63,698 nucleotides of DNA, filler included, from a bacterium (GCA_024275095.1; 4 parts of 4 records of this genome joined end to end with filler, not necessarily neighbours in it), one strand, 5' to 3'; counted from the whole stretch's first letter, positions 46,641-63,513 are shown. The notes: generated by a model not told the origin, from the letters alone. Made by a program: numbers and translations.

Positions 46641-46740
46641 NNNNNNNNNNNNNNNNNNNNNNNNNNNNNNNNNNNNNNNNNNNNTTAATTAATTAANNNN
46701 NNNNNNNNNNNNNNNNNNNNNNNNNNNNNNNNNNNNNNNN
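46641..46740. other. artificial contig spacer
   Basis: N-run with TTAATTAATTAA. Confidence 0.99.
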
Positions 46741-46742
46741 GG

Positions 46743-48560
46743 TCGGGACAGGGGGACCTGCGGGGGTGCGTGTGGCGGTCCCTCGACCTTACGGGCTGGG
46801 TGAGATTCGATTCTCCCTCGAGTGATTGTGATATTCCTCCCGGCGGTGCAGGCACCTTCAGTGTTGTGTTCAGTACCGTGCCCACAGTGAGTGCTGACAC
46901 TGTGTATACCTTTACAGGTGACCCGCGCGATGCGGTAACGCTTGACCTTGCAGTACTCAAGGATAATGTAATCGTTACGCCATATGCACTGACACTTACC
47001 CGTTCACCAGCCGGTCCTCTTCCCGCTGACGGCACTTCTTACTATGTGCTCACTGCGACCCTTACGAACAATTCGTACCCTGTAACGGGAGTAATAATTG
47101 ATTTTAACTCCACCGCAGGAACGTTAAGCGCTTCCACCGGACGAACAGATGCGAACGGACAGGCAGTGGTTTACCTTTACGCTCCTGCATCGAGTGTGGA
47201 TGTTTCAGGTGTGGCCACAGCATCGTATCTTAACGCAGAAGCGTCAACCCCTGTGTCATTTACAGGGGTCACAGGACCCAACCTTCAGTATGTTGGTGGC
47301 ACGCTTGAGCCCCAGGTTGCAGAAAAAGGCTTTCCCGTGTCTTTTTCACTTCAGGTGTATAACGTGGGCACAACGTATATGTCCCTGCTTACAACTTCGT
47401 ATTTGCTGATTTCTGATGGCGTTACTGATTACATTGCTTATCTTGCAGAACCCGTTACTGTGCCTGTTGGAACATATACAACCCTCTGGTTCGGTCCTGA
47501 AGTGATGCCTTCGGGTATTTCTGCTGGAACCTATTACCCGGATTTGTACTTCACCGACGGCGTGACGTTTCAGTGGCGAGACGTAAGCGATGATGTGCTC
47601 GTGTTTTTGAGACCCAGCGTGGTTAATGTGGGTCGCGAGTTCGGTTCGGGCAACGTGTGGATTGAGATAAGCAGTGAGGTGGGTCAGTCAGTGGAGGTGG
47701 TATACAAAGACGCTTTTGAAGGAGGAGTGTGGACACCTGCGGCCACGTTTACCATGTCAACAACCAGGGTAATATGGACGGATGACGGCACGCAGACCGT
47801 GACAGCTCCCACCTATGTGAAGGAGCGCTATTATCGCGTGCGTGTGGAAGGTACGGATGCACTCAGTTACGAGATGCCGGGTGTGTACCGAATTGATGTG
47901 GTGGGTGGCTACACGCTCGTTTCGTTTCCGCTGGAGCTCACCGTGAATACACCCTACGAGATTTTCCAGGAGCAGCTTGTGGGTGATATTTCCGAAATCG
48001 CAGCGGACAGGATTCTCTACTGGGATGTCGCCCAGCAATCTTATCGCTACGCCTGGAAATTCGATTCCGACGGAGCCTACCCCGACCTGGATAACAAGTG
48101 GATAGAGACGGATCTCGGGGGTGAAACCACCATCACACTTGATCCTGATGAGGGGTTTTTTGTACAGAGCCGGCATGGTAACCAGAGCTTTCAGGTTGTG
48201 GGGTTTGTTTCGCAGACCGATCGTCAGAGGAGCATTGTTTACAGGTTACAGATTTTCGGCACCACTTACCCTGTAGAGGTCACCCTCGGTGCCTCAGGTT
48301 TCTGGGAAAGCGGGGCTAACGGCGATATCTCTGAAATTGACGCCGACAGGGTGCTTTACTGGGACCCTGCCGCTCAGTCGTTTCGATACGCGTGGTTGTT
48401 TGACTCAGATGGAGCGTATCCTGACTGGGATGGGAAATGGATAGAAACGGACCTTGGAGGTGAAACCACCATTACGCTGATGCCGGGTGTGGGTTACTTT
48501 TACCAGGACAGGCTTAATGATTTTATCTGGGTTTATCCCAAACCCTATAGTGAACCGTGA
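46743..48560 (+). CDS. large surface protein with Ig-like (Big_1) domain and duplicated C-terminal module, 5'-truncated
   Basis: Frame open from the gap; LPADGTS...TATL...PVTGV...TDANGQA; two 62-aa repeats (47982-48167, 48321-48506). Confidence 0.75.
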   Translation, partial: SGQGDLRGCVWRSLDLTGWVRFDSPSSDCDIPPGGAGTFSVVFSTVPTVSADTVYTFTGDPRDAVTLDLAVLKDNVIVTPYALTLTRSPAGPLPADGTSYYVLTATLTNNSYPVTGVIIDFNSTAGTLSASTGRTDANGQAVVYLYAPASSVDVSGVATASYLNAEASTPVSFTGVTGPNLQYVGGTLEPQVAEKGFPVSFSLQVYNVGTTYMSLLTTSYLLISDGVTDYIAYLAEPVTVPVGTYTTLWFGPEVMPSGISAGTYYPDLYFTDGVTFQWRDVSDDVLVFLRPSVVNVGREFGSGNVWIEISSEVGQSVEVVYKDAFEGGVWTPAATFTMSTTRVIWTDDGTQTVTAPTYVKERYYRVRVEGTDALSYEMPGVYRIDVVGGYTLVSFPLELTVNTPYEIFQEQLVGDISEIAADRILYWDVAQQSYRYAWKFDSDGAYPDLDNKWIETDLGGETTITLDPDEGFFVQSRHGNQSFQVVGFVSQTDRQRSIVYRLQIFGTTYPVEVTLGASGFWESGANGDISEIDADRVLYWDPAAQSFRYAWLFDSDGAYPDWDGKWIETDLGGETTITLMPGVGYFYQDRLNDFIWVYPKPYSEP

Positions 48561-48566
48561 GAGGGA

Positions 48567-51500
48567 TTGATGAAGAAAAGATTTATCCTTGGATTGGGAA
48601 TAATTCTGTTGGGTACGGCAGGTGCCTCTTTTCGCGCTGCCGCGCAGGCACCCTTGTTTAACTGGGGTGAATCGGGATGTGAAATTCAGGATGAGTACGG
48701 GAATCCCCTCACCAACCAGCTGATACTTCTCATCGGCGTGGGAGCTAACGGAGTTATTGACCCGCCGGATGCCGACGGGGTCGGTGGAGACGACGTGTTG
48801 CTCGCAGTTGTTTCCGGGGATGCAAACCCCAACTACATTAATCCATTGGAAGTTGTACCCGGTGTGTGCAGCCAGCAGTTTTCGTACGATTCGGAGTTTT
48901 CCAATCTCGCCAACGGTGATGTTATATACCTGCGCGCTTATAACGGTACCACCATCGCCAATTCCACCTATTACGGCAATTCCCCTACAGACGTGGTGGA
49001 CCTTTCCATCGGATTTGATGCGACGCCCGATGGACCCTGGCAGACAAATATTATCAATCCTTATTACACTTCCGTGGTCCTCGCGTATTTTAAAGCCCGG
49101 CCTGCCGCCGGTGGCGTGCTTCTCAAATGGGCTACCGGCAGCGAAACAGCCAACATCGGCTTCCAGATTTATCGTTCACGCTCCGCGGATGGACCCTATG
49201 AGGAACTGGCCAATGGATTTGTTCCTTCCCAGGCAATTGAACCTGCGGGAGCATTTTACACCTTCTTTGACTGGACGGCAGAGCCTGGAGTCACCTACTA
49301 CTACGTGCTTCAGGATGTACCCGCTGAAGGTATGCCCGTGGAGTATGGACCGGTTTCGGCACAGGCGCTCCTTTCTGCAGAACCCCGCGTTCTCGAATGG
49401 GAAGAGGACGAATCTATTTTTGTGGAAGTTGAACTTCAGGGCTTTAACGTAGGGTATTCTCCCCAGGGTCACGTGATAGAAATTCCAACTTTTTCGCCGG
49501 CGGAAATACCAGGCCAGTATCTTCTCCCCATCCGGCAGTTCGACTACGGTGTTCCTCCTCAGGGAAATATAAGAGTCGAGCTCGTGGATGCCGACACAGT
49601 AGATGTCTACGGCGTATACATGGAACCTTACTACCCCTTGCAGCTGACTGATCCCACATTGGGCTCGTATCCAATCCCGGTTTCAGAACCACCTGCTACT
49701 CCTGTAAGCCTCTCTTCCGTCGATTTTCTGCGAGACCAGCGGATCGCTCACGTGCTCGTGTACCCTGTGAGATACATTCCGGAAGAGAACAGGGCGGTCG
49801 TTTACTTGCGCGTCCGCTTTCGCATTACGTGGTCCGGAACAGGGAAGGAAAATCTCGACAAAGGGTACGAGTGGGTTCTCAGAGGACTGGATAATTATCT
49901 GGAGTCACGCAGACTCAGGGTTGCGAGACGAACGAGCGCGGTTGTGAGTCTTCCGGAGGCTCTGCGCGTTCGCACTGATGAACGCACACTTTATCGTATC
50001 CCGGAGGCCGTTCTTGCGGATACATTCTCTTCCAGTGCGAGCAGTTTCGTGTTGAAAGGGTTAAGCGGTGAAAAAGCGCACATTAATTCGGGAGGATATC
50101 TGGTTTTCCTGGGTGGAGCCGGTGATGGATTCTACACGCCTGTTTCCGCCTTTCTCATCTATCCCGGAACCTCCACTCGCACGGCAGGTGCATTTGATGC
50201 AGCTCCCTCAGGTGCTTCGGTTTCCAGTGAGGTGGAGTGCGAGAGGGAACAGGGAGAGCCGTTAAGGTATATCGCCAGCATGTCTCACCATCCACCTGAA
50301 GAGAAGTGGATATGGAAGCGCGCTTTCGGAGGTGGAAGTGTTGACCTCCCCTTTGCACTCGGTGGTTATACCAGCGGTGACGTGTCGTTCCATATTCACC
50401 TGATCAACTCTACAGATGTCGATGCGTCTGTGGAGTTTGTATATAACGGGAGTGTGCTGGCAGGGAGTTATACAGACATTTCGCCTCATTCCGACCTGAT
50501 GTTCACAGTAACAATACCACAGGCACTTCTTGTGGGTACTGAAGGCTCTCTGACCATGAATGTTCTGTCAGGAACCCAGGTGCTTGTAAAAGGTATGAGA
50601 GCCGTGTATTCGTGTTCCACCACTTTTTACACTCCCTTTCCTTTCAGAGTGACTTCAGAAGGCGATTATTCTTTCAGCACCACGGGTGAGGGTCCCTATC
50701 TCATTTTCAAACTCAGCAATAACGATATAAACGAAGTGGCCTACAACGTGGAGGTTACAGGAACGTACACGCTGACCGCACACCTTTTACCCGGCGATTA
50801 TATCGTGGCCGGTGTACCGAACATTCCCGATGTTCTCGAAATCAAACCTGCCTCCTACATTTCCGATCCCGCAGGTACTGTGGATTATCTCATAATTACC
50901 CCACAGAGGTTTGCTTCCGCCCTTAATCCTCTTATACAGTTGCGCACCAATGAAGGCATGAACGTTCGGGTGTTCTCTGCCCAGCAGATATACGATACGT
51001 TTGCTGCCGGTAATACCACGCCCGCAGCGATCAAAGAGTTCCTCGCGTACGCTTACAACAACTGGGGACAGCCATCGTTTGTGCTGTTCGTGGGAGATAC
51101 TTCTTACGATTGTCTGGGAGTATATGCACGCACCTGGGGTGATACGGGGGAGGACCGTTGTGTACTTCCTTCTCTATTTGTGAACACGAACTACTATAAC
51201 CTTTCCGTACCTTCCGATAATGCTCTTGTAAGCATTGCGGGAAACGACTCCGTTCCCGATATTGCATTCGGGAGATTGCCTGTGAAGGACGTTTCAGAGC
51301 TGAGAGATATGGTTCAGCGGATCGTGGATTATGAAAACGATACGGCGGATGAGTCCTATTACCGCCTCCTGTTTTTTGCAGACAAAAGCGGAGATTTTCT
51401 CGAGACGGCGAAGGCAATGATTGATTCTGTTCCTGAGGGGTATCCCCACGTGTTGAGCTGGGAAGGGGAACTTTCCAGTGACCAGATGCGAGCGGGCATT

Positions 51501-52169
51501 GTTTCGCAATGGCAGAAGGGCGGACTCTTTGTGCATTACATTGGCCATGGTTCTACGCTCTTCTGGGGAGCGGACATGTTCTTTTCAACCGATGATCTTT
51601 TCACCTTCAACACAACGCGTCCTGTGGTGTTCGCTCCTCTTACGTGCCTGAATGCGTTTTATACAGACCCCGTAAATGTGGTCATTGCCGAAGGGGCATT
51701 GCTGTCGGGTAATGCTGTGGCCGCCTGGGCTTCCACAGGGTCGACCACTTTACCCACGCAGAGGAAACTGTTTGAGGTCTTTTACGATGCTGTTTTCAGA
51801 AAAGGGATTTACCGGATAGGACAGGCGGCTGTGTATGCAAAAACGTTCATGGAAAGAACAGGAGATTGGAAGGACGTGATTGTCACCTGGACACTTCTTG
51901 GAGACCCGGCACTCAAGGTGAAGGTTCGCGCAGTGGAGGTGCTGGAAGGAAATGTCAAATCCTGGCCTCCACCGATCGAATTTCCAGAAGACACGGCCGG
52001 GAAAGAATACGAGCCTGGAGGCGGGATACATATACCCGTTATAGATAAGGCAAAAGGCAGCTCGTGTAATTACAGCGGGACATCAGGAGGACCTTGCTGG
52101 CTTCTGATGCTCTTTTTTGCGTGTTACCTCATGTTTCGTGTTCTCACAAGAAGATGGACAATGCGATGA
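48567..52169 (+). CDS. C25 family (gingipain-like) cysteine peptidase, secreted, with C-terminal sorting signal
   Basis: Signal peptide; propeptide-like region; DYLIITP, IYDTF, LFVGD, PDIAFGRLP, HYIGHGS, LTCLN, LLGDPAL; C-terminal GSSC-linker-TM-RR. Confidence 0.88.
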   Translation: MMKKRFILGLGIILLGTAGASFRAAAQAPLFNWGESGCEIQDEYGNPLTNQLILLIGVGANGVIDPPDADGVGGDDVLLAVVSGDANPNYINPLEVVPGVCSQQFSYDSEFSNLANGDVIYLRAYNGTTIANSTYYGNSPTDVVDLSIGFDATPDGPWQTNIINPYYTSVVLAYFKARPAAGGVLLKWATGSETANIGFQIYRSRSADGPYEELANGFVPSQAIEPAGAFYTFFDWTAEPGVTYYYVLQDVPAEGMPVEYGPVSAQALLSAEPRVLEWEEDESIFVEVELQGFNVGYSPQGHVIEIPTFSPAEIPGQYLLPIRQFDYGVPPQGNIRVELVDADTVDVYGVYMEPYYPLQLTDPTLGSYPIPVSEPPATPVSLSSVDFLRDQRIAHVLVYPVRYIPEENRAVVYLRVRFRITWSGTGKENLDKGYEWVLRGLDNYLESRRLRVARRTSAVVSLPEALRVRTDERTLYRIPEAVLADTFSSSASSFVLKGLSGEKAHINSGGYLVFLGGAGDGFYTPVSAFLIYPGTSTRTAGAFDAAPSGASVSSEVECEREQGEPLRYIASMSHHPPEEKWIWKRAFGGGSVDLPFALGGYTSGDVSFHIHLINSTDVDASVEFVYNGSVLAGSYTDISPHSDLMFTVTIPQALLVGTEGSLTMNVLSGTQVLVKGMRAVYSCSTTFYTPFPFRVTSEGDYSFSTTGEGPYLIFKLSNNDINEVAYNVEVTGTYTLTAHLLPGDYIVAGVPNIPDVLEIKPASYISDPAGTVDYLIITPQRFASALNPLIQLRTNEGMNVRVFSAQQIYDTFAAGNTTPAAIKEFLAYAYNNWGQPSFVLFVGDTSYDCLGVYARTWGDTGEDRCVLPSLFVNTNYYNLSVPSDNALVSIAGNDSVPDIAFGRLPVKDVSELRDMVQRIVDYENDTADESYYRLLFFADKSGDFLETAKAMIDSVPEGYPHVLSWEGELSSDQMRAGIVSQWQKGGLFVHYIGHGSTLFWGADMFFSTDDLFTFNTTRPVVFAPLTCLNAFYTDPVNVVIAEGALLSGNAVAAWASTGSTTLPTQRKLFEVFYDAVFRKGIYRIGQAAVYAKTFMERTGDWKDVIVTWTLLGDPALKVKVRAVEVLEGNVKSWPPPIEFPEDTAGKEYEPGGGIHIPVIDKAKGSSCNYSGTSGGPCWLLMLFFACYLMFRVLTRRWTMR

Positions 52170-52348
52170 TGAAGGAGCGGAAGAAGAGGGGAAAAAAGAA
52201 TAGCGGGGGGAGGGTTAAGCGGTCGAAAAGGAGAAAGTTTTCTCCGCCCCGAATTCTCGAAGAAATGGTGATAGAGGCACGAGCTGGAGTGTGCAACTCT
52301 CCGCCCACTTTCGGCAAGGACGCAACCTGCGATAACCTTTTCAGTTGA
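52166..52348 (+). CDS. putative RiPP precursor peptide (60 aa)
   Basis: MMKERKKRGKKNSGGRVKRSKRRKFSPPRILEEMVIEARAGVCNSPPTFGKDATCDNLFS; ATGA overlap with C25 stop and TTGA overlap with rSAM start. Confidence 0.7.
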   Translation: MMKERKKRGKKNSGGRVKRSKRRKFSPPRILEEMVIEARAGVCNSPPTFGKDATCDNLFS

Positions 52349-53340
52349 GTTCAGAATATTCACACAGTGATGTGTTTAAAGGTATTACGAACGTCCTGGT
52401 GGAAGTCACAGAGAACTGTCCTCTTGACTGTCGCCATTGCTACCTGAAAGCCCGCAGGCGCAGGAAACACCATCTTCCGGTGAAGACATTCGCATCTTTT
52501 ATTCAGATACTCCGCGACCACGGCGGCCTGTTTTTGACGCTGACAGGCGGAGAGCCTCTTCTGCATCCTCACGTGGATGACTTGCTGAAAATAGCCGCAG
52601 ATGAGGGGTATGTGATAAGAATTTATTCCAGCCTTCAGAATGTGTCGGAATCTCTTTTTGAACTGATTTCCGCCTTTCCTGTCATGGAAATAGAGACAAG
52701 TCTTTGCGGAGCCTCTGATGATGAACATGACAGCGTTACCGGCGTGAAAGGGAGCTTCTACCGTACCGTTGAGGCCATAAAGCGTTTGCGGAAAGAGGGT
52801 GTGAAAGTAAACATTAAGATGATAATTACGCGGGAGAATTTTTCTCAAATCGCTTTGGTAAAACGCCTGGCCCGGGAACTGGATGTGAATTTTTTTGCGA
52901 GCCCTGTCATTCTTCCGTGTGGTGGAGATTTCCGAATCCCCGAAAAGTTCCTTACAAAGAGGCAGTTGAAAGAACTCTTCGAAACTCACGCAGATGTCGC
53001 TGGTGGTGTTTCACCCCGTCGCGTTGTTTTCCCTTTGTGTAATATCGAAAAAGGAATATTCCTGTCTTCCCGCGGAGAAGTACGCCGGTGCATGGAACAT
53101 CCGGAAATCCTTGGGCATCTTCCAGAAGATGATTTAAAAGCAGTTCTTGAGAGCTCACGTTTTCGTGAAGCAGCGAATATCGCCCGGGAGCCCCCGATAG
53201 CAGAGTGTAAAGAATGCGCCTTTATTCAGTGGTGCAGGCCCTGCCCGGCCCTTTTGAAAAATGATACTGTCAAGAAGTTGATGATAGAGCAATTCTGCCG
53301 CATAGCACACGTGAGATATGATATAACATCCAGAACCTGA
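52345..53340 (+). CDS. radical SAM/SPASM domain peptide maturase
   Basis: CPLDCRHC, LTGGEPLL, HDSVTGVKGSF; SPASM Cys pattern LCN...GEVRRC...CKECAFIQWCRPCP...FC. Confidence 0.9.
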   Translation: MSSEYSHSDVFKGITNVLVEVTENCPLDCRHCYLKARRRRKHHLPVKTFASFIQILRDHGGLFLTLTGGEPLLHPHVDDLLKIAADEGYVIRIYSSLQNVSESLFELISAFPVMEIETSLCGASDDEHDSVTGVKGSFYRTVEAIKRLRKEGVKVNIKMIITRENFSQIALVKRLARELDVNFFASPVILPCGGDFRIPEKFLTKRQLKELFETHADVAGGVSPRRVVFPLCNIEKGIFLSSRGEVRRCMEHPEILGHLPEDDLKAVLESSRFREAANIAREPPIAECKECAFIQWCRPCPALLKNDTVKKLMIEQFCRIAHVRYDITSRT

Positions 53341-53355
53341 TAGTGGAGAGGCGCA

Positions 53356-54105
53356 GTGTATCGTTTCTTTCTTCTCGTATCTGATTATATTCGCCTGGCC
53401 GCTTTAAGCTTTCGGTATGCTTTCAGAAGACCCTGGTACGGCTCAGAAATTATCAAGGAAATGGATAAGATGGGCACTTATTCATTACCCATCGCAGCCA
53501 TTACAGGCTTTTTCACGGGGCTCGTGCTTGCACTTCAAACAGCCAGGAGTCTGGAAGCGTTTGGTATCAAAACGTACATCGGTCAGGTTCTGGCAATTAC
53601 GGTGGTCAGGGAATTGGGACCGGTGATTGGTTCTTTGATGATTGCCGGCAGGGTGGCATCGGGCATCGCTGCGGAAGTGGGAGCGATGGTTGTTGGTGAA
53701 CAGATTGATGCGTTGAGGGTGATGGGTGTCAACATTATTAAAAGGGTTGTCATTCCCAGGGTGGTGGCCGGTGTGGTGATGCTGCCTGTGCTGATCGTTC
53801 TTGTAGATGTAACGGCCCTTATGGGCGGTGCTGTCGTTTCTACGTTCGTTTTGCGATTTCCTTCGTCTTTTTACTGGTCGTCAGTTTTGCAGATACTCAC
53901 TTATCACGACCTTATTATGGGATTTACCAAACCTGTTGTATTTGGATATATCATCGCATCCTATTCCACGTTTGCTGGTTTGAGGTCCTCAGGGGGGACG
54001 GAAGGAGTGGGGAGAGCCACAACCTCTGCGGTGGTTACATCTTCAATACTTATCATTCTCGCTGATTTTATTCTTACCAAAATTTACTTTCTCGTGCTGT
54101 GGTGA
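53356..54105 (+). CDS. mlaE: MlaE family ABC permease
   Basis: RELGPV, AGRVASGIAAEVGAM, EQIDAL, GVGRATT. Confidence 0.92.
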   Translation: MYRFFLLVSDYIRLAALSFRYAFRRPWYGSEIIKEMDKMGTYSLPIAAITGFFTGLVLALQTARSLEAFGIKTYIGQVLAITVVRELGPVIGSLMIAGRVASGIAAEVGAMVVGEQIDALRVMGVNIIKRVVIPRVVAGVVMLPVLIVLVDVTALMGGAVVSTFVLRFPSSFYWSSVLQILTYHDLIMGFTKPVVFGYIIASYSTFAGLRSSGGTEGVGRATTSAVVTSSILIILADFILTKIYFLVLW

Positions 54106-54115
54106 GGGTTGTAGA

Positions 54116-54874
54116 GTGGCGGATGAACTGATCAGATTTCAGAGTGTTTCGAAATACTACGATGATATTCCTGTGTTGAGGCATGTCTCCTTTAACCTTA
54201 AAAAGGGGGAACAACTTGCTATCATAGGAGGTAGTGGTAGCGGGAAGACCACGATCTTAAAAATTATACTGGGATTAATTGTCCCTGAAGAAGGGGAGGT
54301 CTTTCTGTACGGAAAGCCTGTTCGAGCATTGAGAGAGGATGAACTCAATCGTCTCAGGAGCCGAATGGGCATGGTGTTTCAATCAGGAGCGCTCTTTGAT
54401 TCTCTCACGGTGTGGGATAACGTTGCCATGCCGCTTCTGGAGGAGATAGAGAGGGTGCGCAAGATTACGGAAGAAGATATAGAGGAAATTGATGCGAGAG
54501 TGAGAGAAATGCTGGGCCTTCTTGACCTCAAGGGTGTAGAGCAAATGTTGCCTTCGGAACTGAGCGGAGGCATGATGCGCCGGGTTGCAGTCGCCAGAGC
54601 TCTGATTAAACAGCCAGAGCTCATTCTTTATGATGAGCCGACCGTGGGACTGGACCCTATCACCGCTGATAGAGTTACACGCTACATTGAGAGCCTTCAA
54701 CAGCGACTTCATGTATCCTCTATCGTGGTCACTCATGATCTCCGTTTCGCAATGCGCGTGACCAGCCGTATAATTATGCTGGTGAAAGGTCGAGTCGTGT
54801 TTGATGGTTCGAAGGAGGAGTTCCTCAAAAGCACGCAGGATCATGTCGTGCTTTTCAGGGAGGCGGGATTGTGA
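54116..54874 (+). CDS. mlaF: MlaF family ABC ATPase
   Basis: GGSGSGKT, FQSGALFDSLTV, LSGGM, YDEPTVGLDP. Confidence 0.92.
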   Translation: MADELIRFQSVSKYYDDIPVLRHVSFNLKKGEQLAIIGGSGSGKTTILKIILGLIVPEEGEVFLYGKPVRALREDELNRLRSRMGMVFQSGALFDSLTVWDNVAMPLLEEIERVRKITEEDIEEIDARVREMLGLLDLKGVEQMLPSELSGGMMRRVAVARALIKQPELILYDEPTVGLDPITADRVTRYIESLQQRLHVSSIVVTHDLRFAMRVTSRIIMLVKGRVVFDGSKEEFLKSTQDHVVLFREAGL

Positions 54875-55752
54875 AGGTGAGCAGATGGAAAAAGATCCGC
54901 GTGGGAGTGCTTGTAACCCTGGCTTCGATAATTGTTCTGGTATTTATCATGTTGATAGACGAGAGAGGGGGGATTTTTGCATCCTACAGCCGGGTGAAGG
55001 CTTATTTTAAAACGGTTTCCGGGTTGCGTGTGGGAGCCATCGTGTACCTTCTGGGTGTGGACGTGGGCGAGGTCAACCGTATCTTTTATGAAGGTGAAGG
55101 CGTTGTGGTGGAAATGGACATTTTATCGAAGGTGCTTGACAGGATTCCTTCCGACTCAGTGGCACTTATAAAAACGCAGGGCCTTCTCGGCGATAAAATG
55201 ATTGAGATTCGACCAGGCACCTCTTCCACTCCGATACAGGAAGGGGGGGTGCTGCGGGGTGAGTCAGAGGGAGAGATATACGAAAACGTCGCCCGGGCAG
55301 GTGTGGTGGTCCGCAAAGCGGCACGGATTGTTGAGGAACTGGAAGAAATTCTTAGAGAGATAAGGTTGGGCAAGGGCTCTATCGGGAAATTCTTCAAGGA
55401 TGATACGCTTTACGAAAACGTGAATAAAACAGCCTCCAATCTCAACATGCTTGTTGTGCATCTTTCCAAAACCAGTGAGCGCCTTCAGGAATTTATAGAC
55501 TCGGTTAACGAACAACTGGTGCAAAAGGGCACGTTTAAAAAACTTTCTGATACTGCAGCGCAGTTGAATCTTGCCGTTTCGGATTTGAGGTCCATCATTC
55601 TTTCGTTGAAGGAAGGGAGGGGTACGGCGGGAAAAGTGATCAAAGATGAAGAGTTTTACAATTCTCTTACGTCGGTGGTGAAGGAACTGAAAATTCTCAT
55701 TAACGACATTAAGGAAAATCCTTCTCGATACATGAGCATAAAGATCTTTTGA
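54871..55752 (+). CDS. mlaD: MlaD/MCE family protein
   Basis: TM helix, SGLRVGA, GVDVGEV, TQGLLGDK, GKGSIGK, IKENPSRY. Confidence 0.9.
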   Translation: MKVSRWKKIRVGVLVTLASIIVLVFIMLIDERGGIFASYSRVKAYFKTVSGLRVGAIVYLLGVDVGEVNRIFYEGEGVVVEMDILSKVLDRIPSDSVALIKTQGLLGDKMIEIRPGTSSTPIQEGGVLRGESEGEIYENVARAGVVVRKAARIVEELEEILREIRLGKGSIGKFFKDDTLYENVNKTASNLNMLVVHLSKTSERLQEFIDSVNEQLVQKGTFKKLSDTAAQLNLAVSDLRSIILSLKEGRGTAGKVIKDEEFYNSLTSVVKELKILINDIKENPSRYMSIKIF

Positions 55753-55753
55753 G

Positions 55754-57133
55754 ATGGTTGATATGAAGCGTGCATTGTTGAGTGTGACCTGGATTGTTCT
55801 GGTTGTATTTGCTACAGGATGCTCTCGAAAGGTGAAAATTGTGGAATTCGTTGATTATCAATGCCCCTCGTGCAAGAGAGCGGCTGTTCACATTAAAAAA
55901 TTAAAAAAAGAGTTTGGCAGAAAACTTGTCGTTGAGGTTAAAAATTTACCGGTTAAACATTTGCATCCCTACGCTGTCATCGCGGCGAAAGCTGCTGAGT
56001 GTGCACGCAAACAGCACAAGTTCTGGCCCATGTATTTCAAGCTGTTTGAAAAGTCCCCTGTTCTTTCCAGAGAGGACATTCTCAGTTATGCGGTGGAGCT
56101 GGACCTGAATATAGATAGGTTTATTCCATGTCTTGACAGCAGAGAAACAAGCAGGATTGTTCAGGAGCACCTTACAGAGGCAAGAAAGCTCAAGCTCACG
56201 GGAACACCCTCTTTTGTCATAGAGGGAGAGGTGCTTACAGGAGTGCCTTCATATGAGACGTTAAGGACGATTGTGAAAAGACTTATCAGTGGCCACCGCT
56301 TTAAGCATTCAACCGTAAAAATCACGGTGGTTAACGATGAAAAATGCCCTACCTGCGGAACAACCCGATATGTTGCGGAGCTGAAAAAGATTTTCTTTAA
56401 CAATGAAGTAAGAACGCTGAGCGTATACTCCCCGGAGGGGAAAAAATTAAAGAAGGACTACGGCATTCAATGGCTTCCGGGAATAGTCATTACCGGAGAG
56501 CCGGAAGAATATGCAAACTTCTATGTGATGTATCCACTGCGTCTTGTGAAGGTTAAGGGAGCATATGTGGTAAACCCTGCTTTTTATCAAATTGGCTATT
56601 CAGACGAAATACCGTCTCAGGATCCGTTGATGACGTATGGTTCACCGGGGAAGGCGCTTGTCAGGATGGTTCCCTATACATCGTTTGGACCGGGATGTAG
56701 AGGGTGTGCAGAGGCTGCCAAGTACATTCAATCCATTGTGGAGCAGTTCCAGGGCAGGGTTTCCGTAACTTATAAATTCCTCGTCATCAATAACGATGAT
56801 CCTGCTTATGAGGCGGCGCTGGCAGTATTGTGTGCGGCAGAGCAGGGGGGCATGGCAAGAATGATGAAAATAATTTACACACGCGGGTTTACACGTGATT
56901 ACAGGGCCTTTGCTCAGGCCGCCGGAGTTAAAAACCTCAGAAAGTTTACAGAATGTATTTCCGAGCGTCGTTATAAGAACAAAATTGCAGAAGCTGTGCG
57001 TGAAGCGGTAAGACTGTGGGTGCCGTTTGCCCCCTATACCTTCATAGATCACTACCGCTTCCCGGATATACCTAATCCCAAATGGTTGAAAGGTCTTCTG
57101 TCAGACCTGGTCGCTCTGGCTGCGCGGCGCTGA
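55754..57133 (+). CDS. multi-thioredoxin-domain (DsbA-like) lipoprotein
   Basis: Lipobox FATGC; EFVDYQCPSC...GTPSF; further CPTC and CRGC motifs. Confidence 0.8.
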   Translation: MVDMKRALLSVTWIVLVVFATGCSRKVKIVEFVDYQCPSCKRAAVHIKKLKKEFGRKLVVEVKNLPVKHLHPYAVIAAKAAECARKQHKFWPMYFKLFEKSPVLSREDILSYAVELDLNIDRFIPCLDSRETSRIVQEHLTEARKLKLTGTPSFVIEGEVLTGVPSYETLRTIVKRLISGHRFKHSTVKITVVNDEKCPTCGTTRYVAELKKIFFNNEVRTLSVYSPEGKKLKKDYGIQWLPGIVITGEPEEYANFYVMYPLRLVKVKGAYVVNPAFYQIGYSDEIPSQDPLMTYGSPGKALVRMVPYTSFGPGCRGCAEAAKYIQSIVEQFQGRVSVTYKFLVINNDDPAYEAALAVLCAAEQGGMARMMKIIYTRGFTRDYRAFAQAAGVKNLRKFTECISERRYKNKIAEAVREAVRLWVPFAPYTFIDHYRFPDIPNPKWLKGLLSDLVALAARR

Positions 57134-58683
57134 AGAGGGTACTGAACCTTCTGGCAGTTGCTGCAGTTGCTGCGTGTGGAAGCGCCTGCGAAACAACACC
57201 CCATGAGCAGGTTTTGCGCTTACCCATCGCCAGTGAACCACCTACCCTTGACTGGAATGTTGCCACTGACAATGTCAGTTTACGCGTTCTCACCCAGATT
57301 ATGGAAGGTCTCACCTTTATTGATGCTCATGGCCAGGTGCGCCCGGCTCTTGCTGAAAGATGGGTTTACCAACCTGAAGTCCCTTCCTATATTTTCGTTT
57401 TGAAGAAGGGGGTTGTCTGGTCTGACGGAGTCCCTCTCACAAGTGCTCATTTCGTGGAATCCATTAAACGCCTTTTAAGTCCTGAAACAGGCTCGCAATA
57501 CGCGTACTTTGTTTTCGATATAAACGGGGCCAGGTGTTTCAACGAAGGCAGGTGTCCCTGGTCTCAAGTGGGTGTTAAGGCTCTGGATAAAAGAACTGTT
57601 CAGTTCATTTTAGAAAAACCGGCGGTTTATTTCCCCTACATTGTATCTTTCATGGTGACCTATCCCATAAGACCAGATGTTTTGGAGGCTCGCGGGGAAA
57701 AAGCATTTGAACCTCCTTTTCCTGTGGTAGGCCCCTATGTGCCCCTCGAATGGCGTCACCATTATAAAATCGTGCTTGCAACCAACCCGCGGTACCACGG
57801 CCGAAAGCCGTTTGTTCCTCGTGTTGAAATGTATGTGGTGGAAGAGCCTCTTACAGCACTTCTCCTTTTTGAGACAGGCGACCTTGACATGGCACCACTT
57901 TTTCCACTGGCTTACAGGCGTTACAGAACTGATCCACGATTTCGTGATGTTACGGTGTTTAGAGGCTATTACTACGGTTTTCATATTACTCAGGAGCCTG
58001 TGAACCACGTGGAGCTGAGACGCGCCCTTGCCATGGCAATAAATAGAGAAGCTGTGGCTGAGGCACTGAGAGGCATTGCCACTCCTGCTTCTTCGTGGAT
58101 ACCCCCTGGAATGTCTGGATACAATCCCCGGGTTGGACTCAGGTTTGATCCTGAGGAAGCGAGAAAATGGCTTGAAAAATATTACAAAGAGACGGGCCGG
58201 AACTCTGTCGAACTTACCATTTACTTCAACGCGTCGCCAGAGAACCAGGTGGTGGCAGAGAATGTACAGGAGCAGTGGAAGAAAAATCTAAATATCAATG
58301 TAAATCTTGAAATGATGGAGTGGAATGCGTACCTTCAGATGCTTGATGAGAATCCACCTGCTGTTTTTCGGCTGGGCTGGGGAGCCGATTTCCCGGACCC
58401 GCATAATTTTATGGAAATTTTTACCTCCTGGAGCGGTAATAATCACACTGGATGGCACTCGTCTCTTTATGACAGGCTGATCATAGAAGCATCGCAGGAG
58501 AGAGATTCAAAGCGCCGTTTTGAACTCTATACCAGGGCTCAGCCACTTCTGCTTGAAGAGGATGTGGTGATTGTTCCCTTGTTTTTTTCACGGGCCACTT
58601 ATCTTACGAACCCGCATTTTCGGAACCTGGAAATCACCCCGATGGATATTCTCTATGTCAAAGATGTAGTACCGGAGGATTAA
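57130..58683 (+). CDS. oppA: peptide ABC transporter substrate-binding protein (start uncertain)
   Basis: EPPTLD, EGL, PALAERW, WSDGVPLT, GWGADFPDP, NNHTGW. Confidence 0.88.
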   Translation: MKRVLNLLAVAAVAACGSACETTPHEQVLRLPIASEPPTLDWNVATDNVSLRVLTQIMEGLTFIDAHGQVRPALAERWVYQPEVPSYIFVLKKGVVWSDGVPLTSAHFVESIKRLLSPETGSQYAYFVFDINGARCFNEGRCPWSQVGVKALDKRTVQFILEKPAVYFPYIVSFMVTYPIRPDVLEARGEKAFEPPFPVVGPYVPLEWRHHYKIVLATNPRYHGRKPFVPRVEMYVVEEPLTALLLFETGDLDMAPLFPLAYRRYRTDPRFRDVTVFRGYYYGFHITQEPVNHVELRRALAMAINREAVAEALRGIATPASSWIPPGMSGYNPRVGLRFDPEEARKWLEKYYKETGRNSVELTIYFNASPENQVVAENVQEQWKKNLNINVNLEMMEWNAYLQMLDENPPAVFRLGWGADFPDPHNFMEIFTSWSGNNHTGWHSSLYDRLIIEASQERDSKRRFELYTRAQPLLLEEDVVIVPLFFSRATYLTNPHFRNLEITPMDILYVKDVVPED

Positions 58684-61726: not shown

Positions 61727-61826
61727 NNNNNNNNNNNNNNNNNNNNNNNNNNNNNNNNNNNNNNNNNNNNTTAATTAATTAANNNNNNNNNNNNNNNNNN
61801 NNNNNNNNNNNNNNNNNNNNNNNNNN
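61727..61826. other. artificial contig spacer
   Basis: N-run with TTAATTAATTAA. Confidence 0.99.
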
Positions 61827-61827
61827 A

Positions 61828-62019
61828 AAAACAGCCGAGGATGTGGCAAGGGATCATGGTTTATACAGGACATATCACGTGGCAGAAGTGCTGGCGGGTT
61901 TCTGGTTGTTTGGAGAGGCGGAACCAGCTCTTCCACTGTTTTTAAGGCTGGATTTACTGGATGTAAAGGCTCCAGGTGGAGTCATGGTGAAAGAGGTACT
62001 GCGTCGTGCCATTCTGTAA
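61828..62019 (+). CDS. 3' end of a gene, possibly an uncharacterised nucleotidyltransferase family protein
   Basis: Open frame KTAEDVARDHGLYRTYHVAEVLAGFWLFG...RRAIL*; pattern and context resemble NTase genes of PqqD cassettes. Confidence 0.35.
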   Translation, partial: KTAEDVARDHGLYRTYHVAEVLAGFWLFGEAEPALPLFLRLDLLDVKAPGGVMVKEVLRRAIL

Positions 62020-62800
62020 GGAATTTTTTATTCCTGCAGGGAGCACCCTCTGTATACACATATGCATGAAGTCGAAGAGGAATTCAGAGTTTCCCGAGTA
62101 TCTTAACCCATTTATGCAGCTGGCAGTACCCCAGGCTCAGGGAATTGTTGTAATATCGCTGGATGTCACATGTGATGATTTCAGGACTTGGGTAAAGGAT
62201 GAGGTGCTTCAAATTGAACAAAAAGGCGGGATTCTTTGCCTGGAGTCAGTTGACCTTCAGGCGTCGTGGGATGGAAAGGTGTGGACTGCGCGGGTCGGAG
62301 GCCCTGGAGGAATGGAGAATCTTCTTCGCGTGGCTCTGGCTCTTGAGGCACCCCGTTTCAATTATTTAGTCGTTCATGCGGCAGGTGTTGCTGCAAGTGG
62401 CAAGGGCTGGCTTTTTCCCGGACCCTCGGGAGCAGGTAAGAGTACAATTGCCCGGATTCTCCAGAATGCAGGATACGAGGTTCTGGGAGATGACCTTGTC
62501 CTGGCAGGCATTTCAACACACGGAAAAGTAAAAATCGATCGAATTCCATTTGTGAACCTTAAGCCGTCTTCAATGTGTAGTTTGGAGTGCATTATGTTTT
62601 TGAAAAAGTCGGTACGTCCTTATTGCAAACCTCTTCATCCTTCAGCCTCGACAATGCGTTTAATGTCTTCTCTTCCTTTTGTGACGTACTCGAAGAAATC
62701 TCTTGAACAGGCGCTGTTACTGGCACATCGCATCTCTGACACAGTAGAATGTTGTGAGCTTGGCTTTGACCTGGAAGGCAAATTTATTAAAATTATCTAA
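62006..62800 (+). CDS. HprK-related P-loop protein (ScmC-like)
   Basis: VHAAGV, LFPGPSGAGKSTI, VLGDDLV. Confidence 0.75.
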   Translation: MPFCKEFFIPAGSTLCIHICMKSKRNSEFPEYLNPFMQLAVPQAQGIVVISLDVTCDDFRTWVKDEVLQIEQKGGILCLESVDLQASWDGKVWTARVGGPGGMENLLRVALALEAPRFNYLVVHAAGVAASGKGWLFPGPSGAGKSTIARILQNAGYEVLGDDLVLAGISTHGKVKIDRIPFVNLKPSSMCSLECIMFLKKSVRPYCKPLHPSASTMRLMSSLPFVTYSKKSLEQALLLAHRISDTVECCELGFDLEGKFIKII

Positions 62801-62815
62801 TGTAGAGGATTTGTA

Positions 62816-63103
62816 GTGCAAAACAACAGGGTAAGTGACGCAGCTGTTCCTCGCCTTTCTCCTCACACGGTGTTTAGATGCATAGAAGAAGAATATATTA
62901 TTGTACAGGCACGCAGGGGTCTTGTCCTGCGCGTTAACACTGTGGGTGGAGAAGCGCTCGAACTTGTAAATGGGAATCGAACCATTCGGGATATTGCGAA
63001 GGAGCTCATCAAGAAATATTGCGTGAGCGAGAAGGAGTGTGTGGCATATCTGAAAGAATTTTTCGGGTTATTGAAAGATAAAGACGTGATTGTTTTTTCC
63101 TGA
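62816..63103 (+). CDS. PqqD family peptide chaperone (stand-alone RRE)
   Basis: VFRCIEEEYIIV, VNTVGGEALELVNGNRTIRDIA, YCVS, FFGLLKDKDVI. Confidence 0.85.
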   Translation: MQNNRVSDAAVPRLSPHTVFRCIEEEYIIVQARRGLVLRVNTVGGEALELVNGNRTIRDIAKELIKKYCVSEKECVAYLKEFFGLLKDKDVIVFS

Positions 63104-63513
63104 TGGTTCCAGTGAATGAATGTTTTACAGAAAAAATTGTAAAAGAGATGCTCACTGCTGGTGTGCCTCTTCGTGTGAAGATAAGGGGTTTCAGCATGTT
63201 ACCCTTACTGCGCCCCGGGGATATGGTGGAATTAAGGGCTCCTGAAGAAGATATAAAAAAGGGAGACGTGGTAATAGTGAAGGATAAAGGGACGCTTTTG
63301 TGTCATCGCGTGGTTAATATCGATTATCCATGGGTCTATACAGGTGGCGATTTTTCGCCACGTGTGGAAGGACCTTTTCATATTCACGATGTTCTTGCTG
63401 TGGTGATTGTTGAAAATCAATGGAAAATAAGAGGATGGATTGATCGTTTTTTTGTGAAAGTCAGCTTGTTTGTGAAACGATTGAGAAGGTTTTTCGTGAA
63501 GCCAGAAGAATAA
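63103..63513 (+). CDS. S24/S26 family peptidase
   Basis: GFSMLPLLRPGD, GDVV, CHRV, TGGD; no TM anchor. Confidence 0.85.
   Translation: MVPVNECFTEKIVKEMLTAGVPLRVKIRGFSMLPLLRPGDMVELRAPEEDIKKGDVVIVKDKGTLLCHRVVNIDYPWVYTGGDFSPRVEGPFHIHDVLAVVIVENQWKIRGWIDRFFVKVSLFVKRLRRFFVKPEE

What the first reader, a model, noticed from the sequence alone, without database searches (positions are those of the whole stretch)
52166..53340. Unannotated RiPP precursor-like peptide coupled to a radical SAM/SPASM enzyme
Seen: a 60-aa ORF sits exactly between the C25 gene (ATGA overlap) and the rSAM/SPASM gene (TTGA overlap). It has a very basic N-terminus, a leader-like KFSPPRI...EARA segment and a 20-aa tail GVCNSPPTFGKDATCDNLFS with two Cys (C-x11-C). 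Established: aromatic-x-x-P-x-hydrophobic leader motifs are bound by PqqD/RRE domains, and SPASM rSAM enzymes commonly crosslink peptides. The 331-aa enzyme has no room for a fused RRE, implying a stand-alone PqqD. Inference: an uncharacterised RiPP, possibly with Cys thioether links, whose core I do not recognise from a described class.
Basis: partly seen in the sequence, partly recalled or inferred. Interest (0 to 1): 0.85.

Follow-up and report, generated by a model that had tools for sequence, protein, structure and literature searches.

The report
Conserved RiPP precursor beside rSAM enzyme
The 60-residue reading frame is a real, conserved small gene that looks like the precursor of a modified peptide natural product, but whether the neighbouring radical SAM enzyme is what modifies it remains unproven.

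Summary
The ORF at 52166-52348 is as described. It is not a chance frame. A search of 1.84 billion representative proteins found two relatives of 65 and 55 aa (E 4.5e-14 and 7.7e-9). Both end at the same ...LFS terminus and share an invariant F/YxxPxI ... IEARAG-x-CNS ... FGKD-xx-C-xx-LFS pattern behind a variable basic N-terminus. The neighbour is a complete rSAM/SPASM enzyme with no fused RRE and no relative above 27% identity. The window is a concatenation of contigs. The peptide and rSAM lie on a 14,986-bp contig. A stand-alone PqqD gene lies on another contig of the same assembly, in a kinase-like / PqqD / signal-peptidase-like cassette ordered like the published LPP clusters. The peptide's leader has the LPP/lasso [Y/W]xxP motif, with LPP spacing to an AxA site. 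A complex model places residues 22-38 on the PqqD (score 0.74, best control 0.01). Against the rSAM link, no rSAM or C25 relative could be tied to the two homologues' contigs. Odds: RiPP precursor about 0.85, rSAM acts on it about 0.5.

The parts
52166..52348 (+). 60-aa precursor-like peptide gene (stop included)
   Evidence: ORF and overlaps read directly. Two homologues at E 4.5e-14 and 7.7e-9. No Pfam or NCBIfam family.
52166..52285 (+). Proposed leader, residues 1-40: a variable K/R-rich N-terminus, then conserved residues 24-40 ending in A38-R39-A40
   Evidence: Alignment A2. The cleavage site after A40 is inferred from LPP spacing, where Y is at -16 and the cut follows residue -1 (PMC13381572 sections 7 and 9).
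52238..52258 (+). RRE-binding-type motif, F25-x-x-P28-x-I30-L31
   Evidence: Conserved as F/Y-x-x-P-x-I in 3 of 3 sequences. It lies in the centre of the modelled interface with the PqqD, peptide residues 22-38.
52286..52345 (+). Proposed 20-aa core, residues 41-60, with C43, C55, FGKD and a C-terminal Ser
   Evidence: Thirteen of 20 positions are invariant in 3 of 3 sequences, and all three end at LFS-stop.
52345..53340 (+). rSAM/SPASM enzyme, 331 aa from TTG 52345 or 322 aa from GTG 52372
   Evidence: PF04055 and PF13186. It is below every NCBIfam equivalog cutoff. Seven SPASM Cys are present. AF2 model pLDDT is 86.9. Foldseek top hits are SuiB, SkfB, BlsE and anSME.
48567..52169 (+). 1200-aa C25-family peptidase-like protein with a C-terminal hydrophobic anchor; the upstream neighbour
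   Evidence: PF01364 at 3.5e-63 and Propeptide_C25 at 3.1e-7. The PorU model hit is far below its cutoff. Its role in the system is not shown.
46641..46740 (.). Contig spacer (N44, TTAATTAATTAA, N44); the contig carrying the peptide starts at 46741
61727..61826 (.). Contig spacer; the peptide/rSAM contig ends at 61726 and is 14,986 bp long
   Evidence: The length equals the contig length recorded for P0001.
62006..62800 (+). HprK-related kinase-like P-loop protein, 264 aa, on another contig
   Evidence: TIGR04352 3.9e-9, TIGR04355 6.4e-7, HPr(Ser) kinase 1e-3 and ScmC 1.2e-3. All are local matches around the P-loop and below their cutoffs.
62816..63103 (+). Stand-alone PqqD-family RRE, 95 aa
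   Evidence: PF05402 at 8.2e-9, above its cutoff. lasso_PqqD_Bac at 3.6e-6, below its cutoff. Complex model with the peptide scores 0.74 against a best control of 0.01.
63103..63513 (+). Signal-peptidase-I-like (S24/S26) protein, 136 aa; its start overlaps the PqqD stop
   Evidence: PF00717 at 3.5e-5, 23.9 bits against a cutoff of 23.3. TIGR02228 archaeal-type signal peptidase I at 3.4e-7, below its cutoff. Ser31 lies in GFSM and His68 in CHRV, read.

Best explanation
The ORF encodes a genuine precursor peptide of a small, undescribed RiPP family. Residues 1-40 form a leader. Its F/Y-x-x-P-x-I-L motif is bound by a discrete PqqD-type RRE, and the candidate is the 95-aa PqqD encoded elsewhere in the same assembly. 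The invariant A-R-A at residues 38-40, which lies 16 residues after the aromatic residue, is where the leader is removed. The signal-peptidase-like protein next to that PqqD is the probable peptidase, as in LPP clusters.

The released 20-residue core has two invariant Cys, an FGKD stretch and an invariant C-terminal Ser. In this organism the core is modified by the co-directional, overlapping rSAM/SPASM enzyme. That enzyme lacks its own RRE and would receive the peptide from the discrete RRE. The most likely chemistry is a Cys-derived thioether or another radical cross-link. The HprK-like kinase may also phosphorylate a Ser.

Shown: the gene is real and conserved, the enzyme is a complete SPASM rSAM, a PqqD exists, and a model supports binding. 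Inferred: the cleavage site, the rSAM acting on this peptide, the chemistry and the phosphorylation.

Sub-odds: RiPP precursor with an RRE-type leader about 0.85; kinase/PqqD/peptidase cassette acts on it about 0.55; rSAM acts on it about 0.5.
For: Two homologues were found among 1.84 billion representatives (E 4.5e-14 and 7.7e-9). They have a variable N-terminus, an invariant C-terminal 33 residues and the same stop position.

The stop/start overlaps on both sides were read directly. No promoter-like or terminator-like site lies between the three genes.

The rSAM has CxxxCxxC plus all seven SPASM Cys. Its model has pLDDT 86.9. Its nearest solved folds are peptide maturases (SuiB TMq 0.71, SkfB, anSME, CteB, PqqE) and there is no RRE domain.

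A PqqD was found among the 39 small ORFs scanned, of 42 candidates.

The cassette order kinase-like / PqqD / SpI-like matches the lppK-lppB-lppS order. LPP leaders carry YxxPxVLxHQxIxFETxxS, with Y at -16 and cleavage after residue -1 by LppS presented by LppB (PMC13381572 sections 6, 7, 9 and 11). The peptide matches positions 1, 4, 6, 7 and 12 of that motif, and F25 is at -16 relative to A40|G41.

HprK-like kinases of lasso clusters phosphorylate a conserved C-terminal Ser of the precursor (PMC9266682 section 5). All 3 family members end in Ser.

Complex model of PqqD with the peptide: score 0.74 in three runs (0.74, 0.74, 0.75), best of 3 controls 0.01. That mark was reached by 58 of 80 solved complexes and 2 of 110 mismatched pairs. 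The runs share at least 96% of contacts, and the partner's pLDDT is at least 55. The interface covers peptide residues 22-38 and PqqD residues 34-45 and 64-85.
Against: The rSAM link is seen in one contig only. The best non-self rSAM relative has 27% identity (120 hits among 3275 candidates). Only one short fragment was found, at 26% identity (1 of 125 candidates). None of these hits has a recorded contig length of 3213 or 1849 bp, the lengths of the contigs carrying P0121 and P0122. The same is true of the 16 C25 hits.

From those contig lengths, at least one flank of each homologue cannot hold a recognisable relative of the window's neighbours. This is an inference and has limits: only the longest contig of a cluster is listed, and C25 fragments under 352 aa were not searched.

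The PqqD cassette is on another contig. Contig order in the window is arbitrary, and membership of the same genome rests on the assembly or binning.

Solved RRE-leader complexes exist (TbiB1; LppB-LppA). Lasso-type RREs outside Bacillota were shown to bind non-cognate YxxP leaders. The model pass therefore shows that the leader is of this type, not that this PqqD is the cognate partner.

The kinase-like and SpI-like assignments are below NCBIfam cutoffs. The leader lacks the HQ and FET residues of the LPP motif, and the core has Cys where LppA has the phospho-acceptor S3.

There is no SD-like motif before the peptide start or either rSAM start. Codon usage is borderline. The same co-directional gene string runs on into mlaEFD only 15 nt after the rSAM, so adjacency is weaker evidence here.
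Confidence: 0.5

Rival explanations
1. The peptide is the precursor of an LPP-like system only. It would be recognised by the PqqD, phosphorylated by the HprK-like kinase on a Ser (C-terminal S60 or S45) and cut by the signal-peptidase-like protein. The two Cys would simply form a disulfide. The rSAM/SPASM next door would act on something else.
For: The leader motif and its spacing fit LPP. A C-terminal Ser is invariant, and such Ser residues are kinase targets in related systems. The model supports PqqD binding. No rSAM relative could be tied to the homologues' contigs. The gene string continues into unrelated mla genes.
Against: LPP precursors sit directly upstream of lppK, whereas this peptide is on a different contig from the cassette. 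An RRE-less SPASM enzyme whose start overlaps, or lies 23 nt after, the stop of an RRE-type precursor gene is the classic maturase arrangement. The leader lacks the HQ/FET residues and the core lacks S3. LPPs are reported as restricted to Bacillota, while this window has Mla, MltF and SecDF genes typical of diderm bacteria.
Confidence: 0.3
2. The peptide is a lasso-peptide precursor whose cyclase and B2 protease lie elsewhere in the genome.
For: It has a Y/FxxPxI leader motif. The PqqD's best NCBIfam hit is the lasso PqqD chaperone (3.6e-6). The only PDB sequence hit is TbiB1 (E 0.56). Phosphorylated lasso peptides have a C-terminal Ser and an HprK-like kinase.
Against: With the aromatic residue at -17 the core would start at V42, with no acidic residue at core positions 7-9. 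With G41 as residue 1 the first Asp is at position 12. There is no Thr, Ile or Val at -2. The cassette carries a serine signal-peptidase-like gene where a lasso cluster would have B2. No Asn-synthase-like cyclase was seen among the window proteins scanned, though the rest of the genome is unseen.
Confidence: 0.05
3. It is a small conserved basic protein with a non-RiPP role, for example a regulatory, nucleic-acid-binding or membrane-active peptide, or a partner of the C25 protein. The resemblance to RiPP leaders would be fortuitous.
For: The N-terminus is extremely K/R-rich (14 of the first 24 residues), which is unusual for RiPP leaders. There are only three family members. There is an ATGA overlap with the C25 gene.
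Against: The conservation pattern, a variable N-terminus with an invariant C-terminal tail and terminus, is that of a leader and core. The motif fits the RRE in the model with controls at 0.01. A matching RRE cassette exists in the same assembly.
Confidence: 0.1
4. It is a chance open frame in a purine-rich intergenic spacer and is not translated.
For: Codon usage is only at the 5th percentile of true coding windows. There is no SD-like motif. The exact sequence is not among the collection's called proteins in the three start variants tried.
Against: Two independently called homologous proteins from other assemblies have E 4.5e-14 and 7.7e-9 and an identical C-terminus.
Confidence: 0.02

Closest known systems
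LPP (linear polyphosphorylated peptide) clusters: LppA precursor, LppK HprK-like kinase, LppB discrete RRE, LppS archaeal-type signal-peptidase-I-like leader peptidase (Popov et al., Nat Commun 2026, PMC13381572; I read the abstract, sections 6, 7, 9, 11 and 12, and passages; supplements not seen)
   Same: The gene order is the same: kinase-like, RRE, SpI-like. The RRE is discrete. The leader has an aromatic-xxP-x-[VI]-L ... I pattern. The aromatic residue is 16 positions before a small residue at the proposed cut.
   Different: The precursor is not next to the cassette; it is on another contig. The HQ and FET leader residues are absent. Cys, not Ser, is at core position 3. The core is an invariant two-Cys 20-mer, whereas LPP C-termini are highly variable. 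An rSAM/SPASM gene abuts the precursor, and the paper's text contains no occurrence of 'radical' or 'SPASM'. The host is of diderm type, while LPPs are stated to be restricted to Bacillota. The NTP-transferase and MsbA-like exporter were not seen, because the window ends 185 nt after the SpI-like gene.
Phosphorylated lasso peptides (paeninodin and Bsf types) with an HprK-like kinase and a B1 RRE (PMC9266682 and PMC10368454, passages only)
   Same: A YxxPxL-type leader bound by a PqqD-like B1 protein; an invariant C-terminal Ser; an HprK-like kinase encoded next to the RRE.
   Different: No ring-forming Asp or Glu at core positions 7-9 in register. No Thr, Ile or Val at -2. No cyclase or B2 protease seen. 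A serine peptidase stands in place of B2.
rSAM/SPASM peptide maturases: SuiB (streptide), SkfB, CteB (sacti/ranthipeptides) and anSME; and PqqE/PqqD and MftC/MftB, which use a discrete PqqD-type RRE (the pairing with discrete RREs is recalled, not from a call)
   Same: An rSAM core plus the seven-Cys SPASM motif. These are the best structural matches and the best PDB sequence matches (SkfB 1.2e-13, PqqE 1.7e-8). A short precursor gene lies immediately upstream.
   Different: Identity to any of them is at most 23%. The protein is below every NCBIfam equivalog cutoff. It has no fused RRE, unlike SuiB, CteB and SkfB. The peptide lacks the PqqA and MftA signatures. No PqqD is adjacent.
SynChlorMet cassette (NCBIfam ScmC, ScmE, ScmF; its make-up of an HprK-like protein, a PqqD protein and two SPASM rSAM enzymes is recalled)
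   Same: It combines an HprK-related P-loop protein, a PqqD protein and SPASM rSAM enzymes. The window's rSAM has ScmF as its second-best model (8.8e-24) and the kinase-like protein touches ScmC (1.2e-3).
   Different: The scores are far below the cutoffs (84.5 against 400 bits; 18.3 against 125 bits). The genes are not in one cassette here. No paper on this cassette was found (0 papers for 'SynChlorMet').

Membership tests
rSAM/SPASM-modified RiPP (sacti-, ranthi- or streptide-like) | Enzyme with a CxxxCxxC rSAM cluster and the seven-Cys SPASM motif | tested here: met
   C25, C29 and C32, then C232, G244, C249, C288, C291, C297, C300 and C318. PF04055 and PF13186.
rSAM/SPASM-modified RiPP (sacti-, ranthi- or streptide-like) | Short precursor gene adjacent to the maturase | tested here: met
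   The peptide stop at 52346-52348 overlaps TTG 52345, or lies 23 nt before GTG 52372.
rSAM/SPASM-modified RiPP (sacti-, ranthi- or streptide-like) | Peptide-maturase pairing conserved in relatives | tested here: inconclusive
   No rSAM relative above 27% identity was found anywhere. None was matched to the homologues' contigs by length.
rSAM/SPASM-modified RiPP (sacti-, ranthi- or streptide-like) | RRE, fused or discrete, that binds the leader | tested here: inconclusive
   There is no fused RRE. A discrete PqqD exists on another contig. The model supports binding at 0.74 against 0.01. No test of an rSAM-PqqD contact was made.
rSAM/SPASM-modified RiPP (sacti-, ranthi- or streptide-like) | Radical cross-link in the product | not testable with these tools
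   Needs mass spectrometry of the co-expressed peptide.
LPP (Popov et al. 2026) | SpI-like peptidase co-located with a discrete RRE and an HprK-like kinase | tested here: met
   The three genes occupy 62006-63513 in the order K-B-S. The K and S assignments are weak: both are below NCBIfam cutoffs, and S is just above the Pfam cutoff.
LPP (Popov et al. 2026) | Precursor leader motif YxxPxVLxHQxIxFETxxS | tested here: inconclusive
   Positions 1, 4, 6, 7 and 12 match. H9, Q10, F14, E15, T16 and S19 do not.
LPP (Popov et al. 2026) | Precursor encoded in the cluster, upstream of the kinase | tested here: not met
   The peptide lies on the 14,986-bp contig and the cassette on another. Only 179 nt upstream of the kinase gene are present. 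They hold the end of an unrelated open frame.
LPP (Popov et al. 2026) | NTP-transferase and MsbA-like exporter in the cluster | not testable with these tools
   The window ends at 63698, 185 nt after the SpI-like gene. No genome is held.
Lasso peptide | Core starting with G, A, S or C, with a ring-forming D or E at positions 7-9, in register with YxxPxL at -17 to -12 | tested here: not met
   With F25 at -17 the core starts at V42 and D52 is position 11. With G41 as residue 1, D52 is position 12 (register taken).
Lasso peptide | Macrolactam synthetase (C) and B2 protease | tested here: inconclusive
   Neither was found among the window proteins scanned. Not every ORF was scanned and the rest of the genome is unseen.
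SynChlorMet ScmE/ScmF, PqqE, MftC and other named SPASM equivalogs | Score at or above the NCBIfam equivalog cutoff | tested here: not met
   The best is TIGR04053 at 89.3 bits against 395. ScmF scores 84.5 against 400, MftC 71.1 against 265 and PqqE 67.3 against 381.

The most novel reading that the evidence does not exclude
This is a new RiPP class in an uncultured diderm bacterium. It joins LPP-type leader logic (a discrete RRE, a signal-peptidase-like leader peptidase and an HprK-like Ser kinase) to an RRE-less orphan rSAM/SPASM cross-linking enzyme encoded with the precursor at a separate locus. The product would be a cross-linked, possibly C-terminally phosphorylated 20-residue peptide. 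One RRE would serve enzymes at two loci.
Probability: 0.3. Interest if true: 0.8.

Novelty: new variant of a known kind. Interest (0 to 1): 0.62.

Why it matters
If the reading holds, this is an unannotated RiPP precursor family with three members in 1.84 billion representative proteins and no Pfam or NCBIfam model. Its leader uses the lasso/LPP recognition code, while its gene sits against an orphan SPASM enzyme.

It would extend the recently described signal-peptidase-dependent LPP logic beyond Bacillota. It would also give a tractable case of a discrete RRE shared between a kinase/peptidase cassette and an RRE-less radical SAM enzyme. The parts are small (60, 95, 136, 264 and 331 aa), so the question can be tested directly by co-expression and mass spectrometry.

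One practical lesson applies to the whole window. It is a concatenation of contigs, so distances across the N-TTAATTAATTAA-N spacers carry no meaning.

Tried and rejected
- **Structured RNA.** Rfam found no family anywhere in the window (0 matches), so the purine-rich stretch is not a known RNA element.
- **Promoter and terminator scan, 46741-56000.** It gave 7 and 9 sites against 8.3 and 8.8 expected from shuffles, and none lies between the three genes.
- **84-aa form from TTG 52094.** Rejected, because the homologues start near the position of M1.
- **Frameshifted N-terminal RRE of the rSAM.** Rejected. The homologues' N-terminal extensions are short and unrelated to the peptide.
- **Relatives with genomic context.**
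  - Genome scan with the rSAM: 129 pattern matches, 0 relatives.
  - Genome scan with the C25 protein: 22 matches, 1 distant relative, L001 at 25% identity.
  - Metagenome scan with the peptide alignment: 235 matches, 0 relatives.
  - Degenerate DNA pattern for the invariant C-terminal motif: 22 matches, and 0 of 22 had the family's upstream sequence.
  - Viral contigs: 187 matches, 0 relatives.
  - Plasmids: no peptide match, and only distant rSAM hits of 25% identity or less.
  - The 86 genomes of L001's phylum: 0 with the peptide. That phylum was chosen only because it was the one handle available.
- **Paralogues.** A six-frame HMM search of the window found none.
- **Sequencing runs.** None was listed, so there are no read or expression data.
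- **ESM Atlas.** The peptide's best score was 0.87, below 0.9, which is a lead only. The RecJ look-alike clusters are mostly labelled Bacteroidota, also a lead only. The phylum was not determined.
- **Fold of the SpI-like protein.** Folded without an alignment it reached pLDDT 40.2, which is unusable, and it was not searched further.
- **PDB sequence searches.** The SpI-like protein gave nothing meaningful and the kinase-like protein gave only P-loop matches.
- **Literature.** 0 papers for 'SynChlorMet'. 0 for 'HprK-related kinase' with 'PqqD'. 0 for 'HprK' with 'radical SAM' and 'RiPP'. 1 paper for 'linear polyphosphorylated peptides'.


Full report
**Observation.** The C25 gene (48567-52169) ends in TGA at 52167-52169. 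An ATG at 52166 opens a 60-codon frame that ends at TGA 52346-52348. TTG 52345 opens the 331-codon rSAM frame.

Pfam gives Peptidase_C25 (3.5e-63) and Propeptide_C25 for the upstream protein. It gives Radical_SAM (3.4e-19) and SPASM (3.3e-5) for the downstream one. The peptide has no Pfam or NCBIfam family.

Two qualifications apply. The collection's own gene call for the rSAM (P0001, 322 aa) starts at GTG 52372, so the TTGA overlap is one of two possible arrangements. The peptide frame is also open back to TTG 52094.

**Is the ORF real?** Codon usage alone cannot decide. The ORF scores 0.089 bits per codon. The 5th percentile of 1028 true in-frame windows from 31 training genes is 0.098. The 95th percentiles of the two off-frames are -0.113 and -0.185. 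No SD-like motif precedes the start; by eye about half of the other gene starts listed in that call have one. The exact protein is not in the 15-billion-protein collection in the three start variants tried.

Homology settles the matter. phmmer against 1,835,955,588 representatives returned 2 proteins. P0121 is 65 aa with E 4.5e-14. P0122 is 55 aa with E 7.7e-9. Each is the only member of its cluster. P0121 comes from an ENA contig of 3213 bp and P0122 from a Logan contig of 1849 bp.

In the three-way alignment, 4 of the 27 positions 1-27 are invariant, against 22 of the 33 positions 28-60. The N-termini differ but are all K/R-rich. All three sequences end at the same LFS terminus. A variable front, an invariant tail and a fixed stop are what a leader/core precursor looks like, and a non-coding spacer would not keep them.

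**The enzyme.** The rSAM has the CxxxCxxC motif (C25, C29, C32) and all seven SPASM cysteines with the conserved Gly. It is below the cutoff of every NCBIfam equivalog. The best is TIGR04053 at 89.3 bits against 395, and ScmF scores 84.5 against 400.

It is an orphan. Among 3275 candidates, 120 passed E 1e-3, but the best non-self hit has 27% identity. The search for shorter proteins found one 26% fragment among 125 candidates. A scan of GTDB species genomes found none.

The AF2 model is confident (pLDDT 86.9, pTM 0.87), and residues 1-10 are disordered. Its best solved matches are peptide maturases and relatives: SuiB (TMq 0.71), SkfB, BlsE, anSME, CteB and PqqE. By sequence the best are SkfB at 1.2e-13 and PqqE at 1.7e-8. 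There is no N-terminal RRE domain.

**Structure of the window.** The six N runs come in pairs around the 12-mer TTAATTAATTAA. That is a contig-joining spacer. The window has four pieces: 1-23352, 23453-46640, 46741-61726 and 61827-63698.

The third piece is 14,986 bp, exactly the contig length recorded for P0001. It carries, all on the + strand:
- a 5'-cut Big_1 protein;
- the C25 protein;
- the peptide;
- the rSAM;
- MlaE, MlaF and MlaD;
- a double-thioredoxin DsbA-like protein;
- an Opp-type binding protein and two permeases.

An ArsR regulator and a BcrAD-type ATPase follow on the - strand. Distances across the spacers mean nothing.

**A stand-alone PqqD.** I scanned 39 of the 42 small ORFs that are not covered by large genes. 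I left out the peptide itself, its antisense frame and one frame that runs into N. One of the 39 matched PF05402. It is the 95-aa ORF at 62816-63103, with E 8.2e-9 and 36.1 bits against a cutoff of 23.4. It lies on the fourth piece, so it is in the same assembly but not demonstrably nearby.

Its neighbours are two. The first is a 264-aa P-loop protein that touches four HprK-family models around the P-loop (TIGR04352 3.9e-9, TIGR04355 6.4e-7, HPr kinase 1e-3, ScmC 1.2e-3; all below cutoff). The second is a 136-aa protein matching Peptidase_S24 (3.5e-5, 23.9 bits against 23.3) and archaeal-type signal peptidase I (TIGR02228, 3.4e-7, below cutoff). It has Ser31 in GFSM and His68 in CHRV, and its start overlaps the PqqD stop. 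That these two stretches correspond to signal-peptidase boxes is my recollection, not a tool result.

**Link to a published system.** A literature search led to Popov et al., Nat Commun 2026 (PMC13381572). I read the abstract, sections 6, 7, 9, 11 and 12, and some passages; I did not see the supplements. The paper describes linear polyphosphorylated peptides (LPPs).
- The clusters encode the precursor LppA, the HprK-like kinase LppK, the discrete RRE LppB, the archaeal-type signal-peptidase-I-like leader peptidase LppS, an exporter and an NTP-transferase. The operon was expressed in the order A-K-B-S-D-N.
- The leader consensus is YxxPxVLxHQxIxFETxxS.
- Tyr is at -16.
- LppS cuts after residue -1, and only when LppB presents the leader.
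- LppK phosphorylates core Ser3.
- The authors state that LPPs are restricted to Bacillota.

The cassette here has the same K-B-S order. The peptide shares positions 1, 4, 6, 7 and 12 of the leader consensus (F/Y, P, I, L, I). If F25 is placed at -16, the cut falls after A40, inside the invariant A-R-A-G, which is a small-x-small site. The peptide lacks the HQ and FET residues and has Cys at core position 3.

In the related phosphorylated lasso peptides, the HprK-like kinase acts on a conserved C-terminal Ser of the linear precursor (PMC9266682, section 5, passages). All three members of this family end in Ser.

**Complex model.** The PqqD (single sequence) and the peptide (alignment A2) were folded together with controls. 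The score was 0.74 in three runs (0.74, 0.74, 0.75), and the best of three controls was 0.01. That mark was reached by 58 of 80 solved complexes and 2 of 110 mismatched pairs. The runs share at least 96% of contacts, and the partner's pLDDT is at least 55.

The confident interface is peptide residues 22-38, which is the conserved leader stretch, against PqqD residues 34-45 and 64-85.

Caveats apply. RRE-leader complexes of this kind are solved: TbiB1 is the only PDB sequence hit, at E 0.56, and LppB-LppA is reported. The pass may therefore reflect likeness to known complexes. A lasso RRE from outside Bacillota was shown to bind non-cognate YxxP leaders. The result shows that the leader is of the RRE-binding type. 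It does not show that this PqqD is its cognate partner.

**What argues against the rSAM link.** The peptides are 54-64% identical, yet no rSAM above 27% identity exists in the collection that also holds the homologues' contigs. None of the 121 rSAM hits or the 16 C25 hits (proteins of 352-1120 aa) is recorded on a contig of 3213 or 1849 bp.

By arithmetic on those contig lengths, an undetected rSAM would have to be cut to under 30 aa. The upstream flank would then be long enough for a C25 fragment within the searched size range. So on each contig at least one flank is not a recognisable relative of the window's neighbours.

This is an inference with gaps. Only the longest contig of a cluster is listed, C25 fragments below 352 aa were not searched, and the contigs could not be read. 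It lowers the odds that the peptide-rSAM pairing is conserved. It does not exclude a lineage-specific pairing. The co-directional gene string also runs on into mlaEFD 15 nt after the rSAM, which weakens adjacency as evidence.

**Verdict.** I put the chance that this is an RRE-dependent RiPP precursor at about 0.85. I put the chance that the kinase/PqqD/peptidase cassette acts on it at about 0.55, and that the rSAM acts on it at about 0.5.

The composite best reading has these steps:
- the leader is bound by the discrete RRE;
- the core is cross-linked by the RRE-less SPASM enzyme;
- the leader is removed after A40 by the signal-peptidase-like protein;
- a Ser may be phosphorylated.

A thioether from C43 or C55 is my preferred chemistry. 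The reason is that thioether-forming enzymes (SkfB, CteB) are among the nearest solved relatives; their chemistry is recalled, not from a call. A cross-link on the invariant F-G-K, or a plain C43-C55 disulfide, cannot be excluded.

The lasso reading fails on register. The chance-ORF reading is nearly excluded.

**Novelty.** No family model covers the peptide. No paper combining HprK, radical SAM and RiPP was found, and the LPP paper's main text contains no occurrence of 'radical' or 'SPASM'; its supplementary co-occurrence tables were not seen. It is a new variant of a known kind.

Noticed in passing
window 23353-23452, 46641-46740, 61727-61826: The window is not one molecule. Four contigs are joined by N44-TTAATTAATTAA-N44 spacers, so any first-stage finding that spans or measures across these points is unsafe.
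   Followed up: yes
window 62006-63513: A kinase-like / PqqD / signal-peptidase-I-like cassette sits in the order of the LPP clusters, which have been reported only from Bacillota. Here it is in an assembly with diderm-type genes (Mla, MltF). Only 179 nt precede it, and they hold the end of an open frame that runs off the contig start. The window ends 185 nt after it.
   Followed up: partly
window 52040-52166 (C-terminus of the C25 protein): The 1200-aa C25-family protein ends with a Cys/Gly-containing stretch, a hydrophobic helix and a basic tail. This is the layout of a C-terminal sorting or anchor signal. No NCBIfam model matched it.
   Followed up: no
window 46770-48560: The 596-aa Big_1-containing protein is cut at its 5' end by the contig start. 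It carries two near-identical C-terminal repeats of about 55 residues (the ...YWD...RYAW.FDSDGAYPD.D.KWIETDLGGETTITL type).
   Followed up: no
window 46086-46442 (- strand), next to the spacer at 46641: A 118-aa ORF at the end of the second contig, in a low-GC stretch (0.32-0.41). By eye it looks like a fragment of a mobile-element protein. It had no clear family in the pooled small-ORF scan.
   Followed up: no
window 55754-60412: Downstream on the same contig and strand lie a 459-aa protein with two thioredoxin/DsbA-like domains, an Opp-type peptide-binding protein and two permeases, with no ATPase gene. A role in handling a Cys-containing peptide is possible but untested.
   Followed up: no
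window, small ORFs scanned: One small ORF matches a PIN domain (5.6e-12) and one a MazE-type antitoxin (3.9e-11), which suggests a toxin-antitoxin pair. Their positions were not worked out.
   Followed up: no
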